From Escherichia coli (GTDB lineage Bacteria > Pseudomonadota > Gammaproteobacteria > Enterobacterales > Enterobacteriaceae), in assembly GCF_003334785.1 (NCBI RefSeq), contig NZ_QOWV01000005.1: DNA of 64,000 bases. The stretch is one strand, 5' to 3'. Below are positions 27,001 to 30,000 of this stretch, piece after piece (positions within the stretch are counted from its first letter, which is position 1; every line of letters starts with the position of its first letter). A program made the position numbers.

Positions 27001-30000
27001 GAAATTGCCGTTATCCAGTCGGCAATGTGCGGCGCAGCCAATCGTTGAAATATCCATTGCGTCGCGCATGGCATATTTAAAATGCGCGCTGCCCGCGTGT
27101 TCTTTCGGCTGTGGCGGAAAATGAAAGGCGACGAGGATTTCGTCATGCTCAAGAGACACTTTGCCCGGCCCGGTGTGAAAGCCATTAATCGGGACGAAAC
27201 GAACACCGCGCGGGGAGTGGATCTCCAGTTTCGCGTCATAAATTAGCGTTGGCGTGGCAGAATCTGCGCTGGTGGCACCGTTGCAAATATTTCCACCGTA
27301 GGTAGCGACGTTACGGATCTGCGGTCCAGCAATGGACGTGGCCGCAGCACATAACGCCGGGAGATGACGTTGAGTTATAGGATCTTCTATTAGCTGGGTA
27401 AATGTCGTTGCAGAGCCGATACGTAGCGAGCCATCTTCCGCCAGCGTAATTCCCCGCAGCTCCGCCAGATTATGAATATCAACAATATGGCGATAACGGT
27501 CATTGTGATGGTGGAGCTGAATCAGTACGTCAGTGCCACCGGCGAGCAGTTTGGCCTGCGGGTTGTCAGCCAGCAGGTTGATGGCATCGGCAAGGGTTGC
27601 TGCGCGATGGTAAGAAGCAAAATCAAACATGATGTTATCCTCAAATCAATCCTGCCAGATGGAACTCTTCATATAACCGTTTTGGCGTCAGCGGCAGTGT
27701 ATTGATTGCAACACCGGTAGCCATCTTCACCGCGTTACGAATAGCAGCGGCAACAGGAATTATTGGTGGCTCACCCAGTGACTTATGTCCGTATGCGGAT
27801 TGCGGCTCATTGATTTCGACGAACGCGCTTTCCAGTTGTGGCAGATCCGGCATGGTCGGCATTTTGTAATCCAGCAGATTGGGGTTACGGACCACGCCGC
27901 TTTTAGCATCGATGATCATCTCTTCAAATAGCGCCCAGCCAATGCCCATTCCCATTCCGCCGTGTACCTGACCTTCTGCCAGCAGTGGATTAAGAATATG
28001 CCCTGAATCATGAACGTTGAGGATGCGGTTGATGGTGACTTTGCACAGCGCAATATCGACCGTCAGATCAACAAAGGTACAGCCAAACGCCGGTGGGTTA
28101 GTGGTGGTTTTGATGGAGCTTTCAGCAGAGAGCTGCCCGCCGCGTTCAGGGTGGTAGAAAGCGTCCATCGCCAAATCTTTTAACGACATTAACGGCTCTT
28201 CCGGTCGTTCAACCAGCACGATATGGCCTTTTATCAGGGTCAGATTCATCGCTGACTGATGTAGCATGACTGCGGCGTGAGCGATGATTTTCTCTTTTAA
28301 TAATAGTGCCGCACTGCGCAGCGCAGGCGCGGCAACATAGCTCTGGCGTGAGGCAAATGCGCCGGGATCGAACGGCGTAACGTCGGTATCTTGAGTTGAA
28401 ATAACGCGAACGTCGCTGACCGGAACCCCCACGGTTTCTGCCACCATTTGCGAGAAGACGGTGTCGGCACCCTGACCGATTTCCGTCGCGCCGCTTTGCA
28501 CGTTGATGGTTCCATCCTGATTCATCAGAAGGCGCGCGCCTGCTATTTCTACGCCGACAGGCCAGGTGTTAGAGGTGTAGCTAAAACAGGCGACGCCAAC
28601 GCCGCGGCGCAAATTGCCTTGCTGGTTCTGGCATTCTGCACGGCGTTTTTCCCATTCAAAGATTTTCCGGCCTTTTTCAAGACACTCCGGCAACCCTGCG
28701 CTGTAAATACGTTTGCCCGTGAGCGGATTAGCATCTCCTTCGCGGGCGGCGTTGCGTAAACGAATTTCAACAGGATCAATACCTAACGCTGTCGCGGCGT
28801 CATCAAGCATAGACTCAACGGCAAATACGACTTGTGGCGCGCCATAACCACGCATCGCACCAGCCGAGGGGAGGTTGGTATAGCAGGTCTTTGAACTGTA
28901 AGCGTAGGCACAACGAGGATAAAGGTAAGCGACTTTATTCCCCCCCGCAGAAGCGATGGAGTGCCCGTGAGATGCATAAGCGCCGGTGTTAGACAGAACA
29001 TCCAGACTATAACCTTTCAATGTTCCGTCGCGGTTCACGCCCATTTGCCCGTCAATGGTAAAAGCGTGGCGGGTACGGGTTGCGAGGAAACACTCTTCAC
29101 GGCTAAGGGAAACTTTCACCGGAATGCCGCCAAGCTTGCTGGTCAGGAATGCCGCCATTGGCTCTTCCAGTACATCCTGTTTATTACCAAAACCGCCACC
29201 GACAAATGGTTTGATGACTCGTACGCATGACCAGGGAATATCCAGCGCCTGACCAACCACGCGGCGAACAATGTGCGGGATCTGGGTGCTGGAAACGATG
29301 GTAATTCGCGAGTCATCCTCCATCCACGCCAGCGATGTTACGCTTTCCATGTGACAATGTTGAATAACGGGGGTCTGATAGTGCCCCTGTACCTGGTAGT
29401 CGGCGGCATCGATTGTTTGTTGGACATTACCCGTCGACATCGTGCTTTGTTTCAGTAAATTGCCACCGTTATGGATTGGTGCAGCGTCTTCTGCCAGCGC
29501 CGCTTCTGGCGTGGTGATAACGGGTAATTCTTGCCACTCAATGCTGACCAATTGCGCCGCTTTTTCTGCCGTGAGTTCATCGCGGGCCACGACGATGGCA
29601 ACGGCGTCACCATGATGACGAACATGGCGAGTTAGCAGTGCGCGATCGGCGGTATCGCGCTTGTTTTCGTCAAGTGTCCAGGCATGCCCAGCTGTAGCGA
29701 ATGGAATATCAGGCACATCTTCCCAGGTAAAAATCGCCAGTACGCCCGGCAAACTTCTGGCTTGTTCATCATTAATACTTACGGCATAACCATGTGCGAT
29801 AGGGCTACGTACATATTTCGCATAACACATGCCCGCCATAACATAATCGTCAGTATATCGTGCCCGCCCGGTGACCTTAGCAATGGCATCGACGCGCATG
29901 CATGATTCACCCGTAGCGGTTGCTTCCCGCGCTTCCATAGAAATCCCCTCGATTTGAACATTTGGTTCTTATGGCAAAGATTTAGTCTAAGCAGGCAAGA

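What the first reader, a model, noticed from the sequence alone, without database searches (positions are those of the whole stretch)
29899..29938. Alternative upstream start for xdhA
An in-frame ATG 13 codons upstream of the MRVDAIAK start has a stronger Shine-Dalgarno (GAGGGG, 5-nt spacing) than the downstream ATG (GGGTGA). It would also sit about 46 nt from the candidate sigma-54 promoter. The N-terminus of XdhA may be longer than the 752-aa form.
Basis: seen in the sequence. Interest (0 to 1): 0.3.

Follow-up and report, generated by a model that had tools for sequence, protein, structure and literature searches.

The report
True start codon of xdhA
The upstream ATG is almost certainly the real start of the E. 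coli xanthine dehydrogenase gene xdhA (765 rather than 752 amino acids), but this is an ordinary annotation discrepancy, because NCBI's automatic annotation already uses the longer form in thousands of genomes.

Summary
On the minus strand an in-frame ATG (29938-29936) lies 13 codons upstream of the MRVD ATG (29899-29897). It is preceded by GAGGGG (29950-29945; the gap is 6 nt, not 5).

- RefSeq/PGAP records start xdhA at this ATG (765 aa; this exact protein is on >=1000 contigs).
- Only the curated K-12 MG1655 lineage keeps the 752-aa form (51 contigs).

Comparative evidence from 67 orthologous loci is close to decisive.
- The upstream ATG and its Shine-Dalgarno (SD) sequence are conserved in every genus that has the 13-codon extension.
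- The 39 nt carry no indels and vary mainly at third codon positions (pN/pS 0.30, against 1.4-1.5 in shifted frames).
- Gly10 is invariant.
- The codon aligned with Met14 is CTG, TTA, AAA, AAG, CGG, CCG or GAA in many orthologs, so it cannot be their start.

The SD-like GGGTGA before Met14 is simply the Gly-Glu codons and is no stronger than background. The sigma-54 promoter is a published ChIP-seq site whose predicted transcription start lies 45 nt upstream of the upstream ATG.

I found no direct N-terminal or initiation-profiling data. Low interest: a probable mis-annotation in the K-12 reference record.

The parts
27641..29938 (-). xdhA coding sequence in its long form (765 aa plus stop), the molybdenum-binding subunit of xanthine dehydrogenase
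   Evidence: Longest ORF. NCBIfam NF007426 XdhA equivalog scores 1486 bits against a cut-off of 916, covering residues 5-765. PGAP annotates exactly this range in DH5a, O157, E23, AVS0655, MLI106K1 and AREA_499.
29936..29938 (-). ATG1, the proposed true initiation codon
   Evidence: Conserved as ATG in all 20 distinct orthologs that have the 13-codon extension, across 9 genera. It is the 5'-most start codon in the ORF.
29900..29935 (-). Codons 2-13 (EAREATATGESC), the N-terminal segment missing from the MG1655 annotation
   Evidence: No indels. Variability by codon position is 0.083/0.070/0.357. pN/pS is 0.30 in frame and 1.43/1.53 in shifted frames. Gly10 is invariant in 26 orthologs. The segment aligns to the N-termini of solved homologs.
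29897..29899 (-). ATG2 (Met14), the start used in the MG1655 record; here interpreted as an internal Met codon
   Evidence: MG1655 b2866 is 2259 nt. The orthologous codon is CTG in Trabulsiella and Morganella, TTA in Buttiauxella B2, and AAA/AAG/CGG/CCG/GAA in Hafnia, Aeromonas, Edwardsiella, Serratia and Solidesulfovibrio.
29945..29950 (-). Shine-Dalgarno sequence GAGGGG for ATG1 (6-nt gap)
   Evidence: Duplex energy is -8.0 kcal/mol. The equivalent site in 20 orthologs averages -8.0 (range -6.1 to -11.0), conserved even though the leader around it is variable and indel-rich.
29907..29912 (-). GGGTGA, the SD-like string before ATG2; it is the end of the Thr9 codon plus the Gly10-Glu11 codons
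   Evidence: -3.8 kcal/mol. The ortholog mean is -3.5, and 17.5% of internal in-frame positions do as well. It changes at wobble positions (GGCGAT, GGCGAG, GGGGAA).
29994..30010 (-). sigma-54 -24/-12 promoter element CTGGCGTAAATCTTGCC; predicted TSS at 29983
   Evidence: ChIP-seq site OS29 in Bonocora et al. 2015, flagged as experimentally confirmed in EcoCyc (PMC4591121). The core TGGCGTA..T.TTGCCT is invariant in 11 genera and present upstream of most orthologs.
29939..29983 (-). Predicted 45-nt 5' leader
   Evidence: Derived from the published TSS prediction. It is variable and indel-rich between genera. It shows no unusual RNA structure: 29983-29870 folds at z = +0.64 against shuffles.
30108..30141 (-). 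Pair of conserved dyad boxes (TATCACATTGA 30141-30131 and TCATATTGATA 30118-30108), a candidate enhancer for the sigma-54 activator
   Evidence: Near-invariant in 11 genera. Present at about 108 and 130 nt upstream of the -24 element in most enteric orthologs. The motif is enriched in the window, 13 matches against 2.46 expected.
30040..30060 (-). Conserved T-rich/CATCACA box between the dyads and the promoter (function not tested)
   Evidence: Conserved block in alignment A1.

Best explanation
xdhA is translated from the upstream ATG (window 29938-29936, minus strand), giving a 765-aa XdhA. The sigma-54-dependent mRNA is predicted to begin at about 29983. Its 45-nt leader presents a GAGGGG Shine-Dalgarno sequence 6 nt before this ATG, and the 30S subunit pairs there and initiates. 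The next 13 codons (MEAREATATGESC) are ordinary coding sequence. They supply the start of the family-conserved N-terminal motif G-x4-R-x-D-x3-K-x-T-G of xanthine-oxidase-family molybdenum subunits. Met14 (MRVD...) is an internal residue, and the 752-aa form in the curated K-12 MG1655 record is a start-site mis-annotation. What is shown: conservation, coding signature, SD strength, promoter position. What is inferred: that ribosomes actually initiate there in vivo, and that the extra residues matter for folding or assembly.
For: (1) In 20 distinct orthologs from Escherichia, Citrobacter, Kluyvera, Cedecea, Trabulsiella, Atlantibacter, Yokenella, Pluralibacter and Klebsiella indica, ATG1 is invariant. 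It is preceded by a conserved SD, and the 39 nt contain no indel, while the leader just upstream is full of indels. (2) Variation in codons 2-13 is 0.083/0.070/0.357 by codon position, like the core at 0.028/0.038/0.373. pN/pS is 0.30 in frame against 1.43 and 1.53 in shifted frames. (3) The codon aligned with Met14 is a non-start codon (CTG, TTA, AAA, AAG, CGG, CCG, GAA) in Trabulsiella, Morganella, Buttiauxella B2, Hafnia, Aeromonas, Edwardsiella, Serratia and Solidesulfovibrio. Each of these has a single well-placed ATG 8-15 codons before the conserved Arg. (4) Gly10 is invariant in 26 full-length orthologs and Met14 is not. (5) SD duplex energy is -8.0 against -3.8 kcal/mol, and the cost of opening the mRNA is 9.2 against 13.6 kcal/mol. 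(6) NCBIfam XdhA models cover residues 5-765 and 10-765. Solved homologs (QorL 1t3q_B, NdhL 3hrd_A, CutL 1ffu_B, MOP 1sij_A, PaoC 5g5g_C) align from residues 2-10. (7) PGAP uses this start in every PGAP record inspected, including K-12 DH5a. The exact 765-aa protein is on >=1000 contigs, against 51 for the 752-aa form. (8) Across about 5,300 E. coli genomes the 76-nt region is at least 97% identical, and the variants inspected are synonymous.
Against: I found no direct experimental evidence such as an N-terminal peptide, Edman sequence or initiation-site ribosome profiling. INRI-seq templates carry only 30 nt upstream of the MG1655 start, so they could not contain ATG1. Met14 is conserved as ATG in most Enterobacteriaceae genera, and it has a weak GGUGA match to the anti-SD, so some initiation there cannot be excluded. 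The AlphaFold monomer model is uninformative for residues 1-28 (pLDDT below 50).
Confidence: 0.9

Rival explanations
1. Both ATGs are used, so the gene makes two proteoforms of 765 and 752 aa from one mRNA. This would resemble known in-frame dual-start genes.
For: ATG2 is retained as ATG in most Enterobacteriaceae with the extension. GGUGA upstream of it gives -3.8 kcal/mol, or -5.7 in three orthologs. In-frame internal starts are known in E. coli, for example speA and arcB (PMC9825163 and 10.1101/520783).
Against: The SD-like string is at background level and drifts at wobble positions. Met14 becomes CTG or TTA in Trabulsiella, Morganella and Buttiauxella, and Lys, Arg, Pro or Glu further out, which is the pattern of an ordinary residue. 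ATG2 sits in a more structured stretch of the mRNA. A protein starting at Met14 would lack the invariant Gly10.
Confidence: 0.07
2. The MG1655 annotation is right. Translation starts only at ATG2, and the upstream 39 nt are untranslated leader that happens to be open and in frame.
For: The curated MG1655 record gives 752 aa. An 84-nt leader is within the range of other sigma-54 promoters in Bonocora Table 1, such as ygeW at 80 and glnA at 73.
Against: A non-coding leader would not show third-position-biased variation, a pN/pS of 0.30 only in this frame, zero indels across 9 genera and an invariant Gly codon, next to an indel-rich true leader. Orthologs that lack a start codon at this position must start upstream. 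The strong conserved SD would have no purpose.
Confidence: 0.03

Closest known systems
RefSeq/PGAP XdhA, 765 aa (WP_000388150.1, 'MULTISPECIES: xanthine dehydrogenase molybdenum-binding subunit XdhA [Enterobacteriaceae]')
   Same: The CDS range equals the window ORF 27641-29938, starting at the same ATG. The window's 765-aa translation is found by exact look-up on >=1000 contigs.
   Different: Nothing differs. The finding re-derives this annotation. The discrepancy is with NP_417342.1/AAC75904.1 (MG1655, 752 aa).
Mis-annotated or ambiguous start codons in the E. coli K-12 reference, revealed by initiation profiling (for example uidR, wbbI, potB)
   Same: The reference annotation chose a different in-frame start codon than the one the evidence supports (PMC9825163; 10.1101/520783).
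   Different: Those cases rest on ribosome-profiling or N-terminal peptide data. For xdhA the evidence is comparative and thermodynamic only, because the operon is essentially silent in standard cultures (the in vivo Ribo-RET value for the xdhA sites listed in INRI-seq Table S3 is 0).
N-termini of solved xanthine-oxidase-family molybdenum subunits (QorL 1t3q_B, NdhL 3hrd_A, CutL 1ffu_B, D. gigas MOP 1sij_A, PaoC 5g5g_C)
   Same: All have residues ahead of the conserved Arg, including a Gly five residues before it (SIGTSVLRRED, VLGKNKVKVD, GMGASRLRKED). These align with E. coli residues 2-14.
   Different: These are sequence alignments to deposited chains only. I did not verify that those residues are ordered in the structures. 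XdhABC of E. coli itself did not appear among the solved chains.
sigma-54 promoters with upstream activator sites (for example glnAp2, hycA/hypA), activated by a bacterial enhancer-binding protein
   Same: GG-N10-GC element, ChIP-seq occupancy by sigma-54, and conserved dyad sites 100-130 bp upstream.
   Different: The activator for xdhA has not been demonstrated. YgeV is proposed from iModulon data (PMC10602906), and binding to the dyads is my inference.

Membership tests
XdhA equivalog (NCBIfam NF007426 / NF043082) | Whole-protein score above the curated cut-off | tested here: met
   1486.4 bits against a cut-off of 916 (NF007426); 1215.8 against 780 (NF043082).
XdhA equivalog (NCBIfam NF007426 / NF043082) | The N-terminal profile positions align to residues upstream of Met14 | tested here: met
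   Profile positions 2-761 align to residues 5-765. NF043082 positions 2-758 align to residues 10-765.
Xanthine-oxidase-family Mo subunit N-terminal motif G-x4-R-x-D/E-x3-K-x-T-G | A conserved Gly five residues before the conserved Arg | tested here: met
   Gly10 and Arg15 are invariant in 26 orthologs. The same spacing is seen in QorL, NdhL, CutL and MOP alignments. The Gly is encoded only if ATG1 is used.
Canonical SD-led bacterial initiation site | ATG/GTG/TTG with anti-SD complementarity about 5-10 nt upstream | tested here: met
   ATG1 has GAGGGG with a 6-nt gap and -8.0 kcal/mol, in the top 2.3% of in-frame positions in the gene.
Canonical SD-led bacterial initiation site | Start codon and SD conserved in orthologs, with coding-type constraint beginning at the start codon | tested here: met
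Canonical SD-led bacterial initiation site | Direct detection of initiating ribosomes or of the N-terminal peptide | not testable with these tools
   No dataset found that covers it.
In-frame dual-start gene (two proteoforms) | An internal start codon with its own SD, conserved among orthologs | tested here: not met
   Met14 is CTG, TTA, AAA, AAG, CGG, CCG or GAA in many orthologs. The SD-like string averages -3.5 kcal/mol, which is background.
In-frame dual-start gene (two proteoforms) | Two protein products observed | not testable with these tools
   No proteomic data found.
sigma-54-dependent promoter | A -24 GG / -12 GC element with correct spacing, occupied by sigma-54 | tested here: met
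   TGGCGTAAATCTTGC at 30009-29995. ChIP-seq peak OS29, FAT 11, flagged as experimentally confirmed in EcoCyc (PMC4591121). Conserved in orthologs.
sigma-54-dependent promoter | Upstream activator sites bound by an enhancer-binding protein | tested here: inconclusive
   Conserved dyads at 30141-30108, and the same motif upstream of the ygeW and ygfK sigma-54 promoters. Binding by YgeV or any other protein was not shown.

The most novel reading that the evidence does not exclude
E. coli and its close relatives use both ATG1 and ATG2, producing a full-length XdhA and a 752-aa form that lacks the conserved Gly10 segment. The ratio would be set by leader structure or growth condition, and the short form would assemble or function differently in the XdhABC complex.
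Probability: 0.06. Interest if true: 0.3.

Novelty: already known. Interest (0 to 1): 0.12.

Why it matters
It matters mainly for data hygiene. The K-12 MG1655 reference record, and resources derived from it, probably list XdhA 13 residues too short and without an invariant glycine. That could affect expression constructs, deletion and fusion designs, proteomics search databases and structural models of XdhABC. This enzyme is now of interest for gut purine and uric-acid metabolism (PMC12507026). It also shortens the inferred 5' leader of the sigma-54 transcript from 84 to 45 nt. It does not reveal a new mechanism.

Tried and rejected
- INRI-seq (PMC9825163): the synthetic templates carry only 30 nt upstream of the MG1655 start, so ATG1 was absent. 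Table S3 lists only in vitro peaks at +60, +76 and +127. Table S2, which lists annotated starts, is truncated in the held copy before b2866. Uninformative.
- TRAINSPOTTER N-terminomics supplements: no xdhA, b2866 or Q46799.
- Ribo-RET preprint: no supplements held.
- Full-text searches for xdhA with 'retapamulin', 'start codon' or 'proteogenomic' returned nothing relevant.
- AlphaFold2 monomer with a 26-ortholog alignment: mean pLDDT 73.6, but below 50 for residues 1-28, which includes invariant residues 15-28. It cannot speak to the extension.
- RNA fold of the leader plus early coding region: no more stable than shuffles (z = +0.64), so there is no evidence of a regulatory structure.
- Sigma-70 promoter scan of 29700-30400: one weak hit far upstream (30242-30214), against 1.9 expected by chance, and no promoter between the two ATGs.
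- IHF reading of the T-rich/CATCACA box: by eye it fits the consensus poorly. Left unassigned.

Full report
**What is in the sequence.** xdhA lies on the minus strand. The longest ORF is 27641..29938 (765 aa), and its translation reads ...*EPNVQIEGIS-MEAREATATGESC-MRVDAIAKVTGRARYTDD....
- ATG1 is at 29938-29936 and ATG2, the MRVD start, is at 29899-29897, exactly 13 codons apart.
- No in-frame ATG, GTG or TTG lies between them.
- An in-frame stop lies 10 codons upstream of ATG1, so ATG1 is the 5'-most possible start.
- GGGTGA (29912-29907) is followed by 7 nt and then ATG2.

**Annotation status.** The upstream start is not an unrecognised alternative.
- Every PGAP-annotated RefSeq genome I inspected starts xdhA at the position equal to window 29938 (2298 nt, 765 aa). 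These were DH5a (a K-12 strain), O157:H7 Gim1-1, E23, AVS0655, MLI106K1 and AREA_499.
- The curated MG1655 record NC_000913.3 gives b2866 as 2259 nt, 752 aa.
- Exact-sequence look-up finds the 765-aa protein on at least 1000 contigs (the counting cap), named 'MULTISPECIES XdhA [Enterobacteriaceae]'.
- The 752-aa protein is on 51 contigs, from the MG1655-lineage GenBank entries and UniRef.

So the finding comes down to a disagreement between the K-12 reference annotation and PGAP.

**Comparative test.** A scan of species-representative genomes returned 67 orthologous loci. I translated the frame upstream of the invariant R-V-D-A-x-A-K-x-T-G motif in each.

In Escherichia, Citrobacter, Kluyvera, Cedecea, Trabulsiella, Atlantibacter, Yokenella, Pluralibacter and Klebsiella indica (20 distinct sequences):
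- an ATG sits exactly 14 codons before the Arg;
- it is preceded by (A/G)AGGGG or CAGGAG;
- the 39 nt contain no indel, whereas the leader just upstream is variable and full of indels.

Variability by codon position in codons 2-13 is 0.083/0.070/0.357, the same shape as the core at 0.028/0.038/0.373. Nei-Gojobori pN/pS is 0.30 in the xdhA frame, against 1.43 and 1.53 in the shifted frames, and 0.07 in the core.

The codon aligned with E. coli Met14 is not conserved as a start:
- CTG in two Trabulsiella species and in Morganella;
- TTA in Buttiauxella B2;
- AAA, AAG, CGG, CCG or GAA in Enterobacillus, Hafnia, Aeromonas, Edwardsiella, Serratia and Solidesulfovibrio.

Each of these has a single ATG 8-15 codons before the Arg with a good SD. 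In a 26-protein full-length alignment Gly10 is invariant and Met14 is not. In E. coli, only ATG1 can place Gly10 in the protein.

**Translation signals.** The anti-SD duplex energy is -8.0 kcal/mol for ATG1 and -3.8 for ATG2.
- Across the 20 orthologs the first site averages -8.0 (range -6.1 to -11.0) and the second -3.5.
- Among in-frame positions inside xdhA, 2.3% reach -8.0 and 17.5% reach -3.8.
- The string before ATG2 is the end of the Thr9 codon plus the Gly10-Glu11 codons. It drifts at wobble positions to GGCGAT, GGCGAG and GGGGAA.
- On the predicted transcript, opening positions -18..+13 costs 9.2 kcal/mol at ATG1 and 13.6 at ATG2.
- The leader has no unusual structure (z = +0.64).

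**Family evidence.**
- The NCBIfam XdhA equivalog models align to residues 5-765 (NF007426, 1486 bits against a cut-off of 916) and 10-765 (NF043082).
- Solved homologs align from residues 2-10. QorL reads SIGTSVLRRED, NdhL reads VLGKNKVKVD, CutL reads EARELALAGMGASRLRKED, and MOP and PaoC align from Gly10.
- The extension therefore supplies the start of a family-wide G-x4-R-x-D/E motif.
- An AlphaFold monomer model was uninformative: pLDDT was below 50 for residues 1-28, which include undisputed invariant residues.

**Promoter context.** The -24/-12 element CTGGCGTAAATCTTGCC (30010-29994) is ChIP-seq site OS29 of Bonocora et al. 2015.
- It is flagged there as experimentally confirmed in EcoCyc.
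- The paper gives 84 bp from the predicted TSS (19 bp downstream of the motif centre) to the MG1655 start (PMC4591121).
- The element is invariant in 11 genera and present upstream of most orthologs.
- The distance from the promoter to the start codon is 54-71 nt across lineages when the ATG1-equivalent start is used.

**Population check.** The 76-nt region around both ATGs is present in 5327 of 5426 complete E. coli genomes, at 97% identity or more where it is full length. The most divergent alleles I inspected differ only by synonymous ACG>ACA (Thr9) and GTC>GTA (Val16).

**Experimental evidence.** I found none either way.
- INRI-seq templates include only 30 nt upstream of the MG1655 start, so they lacked ATG1. 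The held copy of its annotated-start table is cut before b2866.
- TRAINSPOTTER supplements have no xdhA entry.
- No Ribo-RET supplements are held.
- Full-text searches returned nothing relevant.
- The operon is barely expressed in standard conditions. [quoted passage not shown]

**Verdict.** ATG1 is the physiological start, with about 0.9 confidence. Dual initiation gets about 0.07 and ATG2 alone about 0.03. It is best described as a probable start-site mis-annotation in the K-12 reference record. Interest is low.

**Side observations.**
- The actS-xdhA intergenic region has a clear phylogenetic footprint of two dyad boxes (30141-30131 and 30118-30108) and a T-rich/CATCACA box (30060-30040) upstream of the sigma-54 element.
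- The dyad core TATCA-N3-TGA occurs 13 times in the window against 2.46 expected.
- It clusters upstream of the two other published sigma-54 promoters of this purine/urate cluster. These are ygeW (sites at 24398-24263; promoter at 24088-24074) and ygfK (a perfect TTATCATAATGATAA at about 14636-14622; promoter at 14452-14438).
- This fits a shared enhancer for one activator. YgeV, encoded at 24458-26236, is the obvious candidate, but binding is untested.

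Noticed in passing
window 30108-30141 (xdhA), 24263-24398 (ygeV-ygeW intergenic), 14622-14634 (mocA-ygfK intergenic), 22446-22458 (inside ygeX): The dyad motif TATCA-N3-TGA(TA) is enriched in the window: 13 matches against 2.46 expected, and none of 100 shuffles reached 13. 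It lies roughly 100-300 bp upstream of all three ChIP-mapped sigma-54 promoters of the purine/urate cluster (xdhA, ygeW, ygfK). ygfK has a perfect TTATCATAATGATAA palindrome. The xdhA pair is conserved across most enteric genera. This is a candidate shared enhancer for the sigma-54 activator YgeV. I found no paper describing it.
   Followed up: partly
window 30040-30060, minus strand: A conserved block, TTTTTTAACGTCATCACACTT, lies between the dyads and the sigma-54 element. It is near-invariant in 11 genera. Its position would suit a DNA-bending protein site or a third activator half-site. By eye it fits the IHF consensus poorly.
   Followed up: no
L076 (E. coli fS149a, NZ_CM176575.1), locus 1501-2350: xdhA is truncated after codon 10 by an IS1A element, and the next gene is idi. 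The whole xdhA-to-ygfU purine/urate cluster is therefore deleted in this strain. About 89-99 of 5426 complete E. coli genomes lack the xdhA 5' region altogether.
   Followed up: partly
L010 (E. albertii NBRC 107761), L017 (uncultured Cedecea), L028 (Morganella psychrotolerans DSM 17886), L061 (Solidesulfovibrio MAG): The xdhA reading frame ends prematurely in these records, at 370, 172, 418 and 456 codons. These may be pseudogenes or assembly errors. I did not examine them.
   Followed up: no
window about 24132-24147, minus strand (ygeV-ygeW intergenic): A CRP-like site, TGTGATCAACCCCACA, lies between the dyad cluster and the ygeW sigma-54 promoter. This fits the 'native Crp-binding site' and the glucose repression of urate degradation mentioned in PMC12507026.
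   Followed up: no
window 29840-29838 (Met34 of the long form, +60 from the MG1655 start) and out-of-frame ATGs at +76 and +127: INRI-seq reports in vitro initiation peaks at these internal ATGs on the synthetic xdhA template, with zero in vivo Ribo-RET signal (PMC9825163 Table S3). These are probably artefacts of a template that lacks the real start site.
   Followed up: no
window 29903-29877, minus strand: An out-of-frame ATG overlaps ATG2 (ATGCATG) and opens an 8-codon ORF, MHARRCHC*. There is no evidence that it is used.
   Followed up: no
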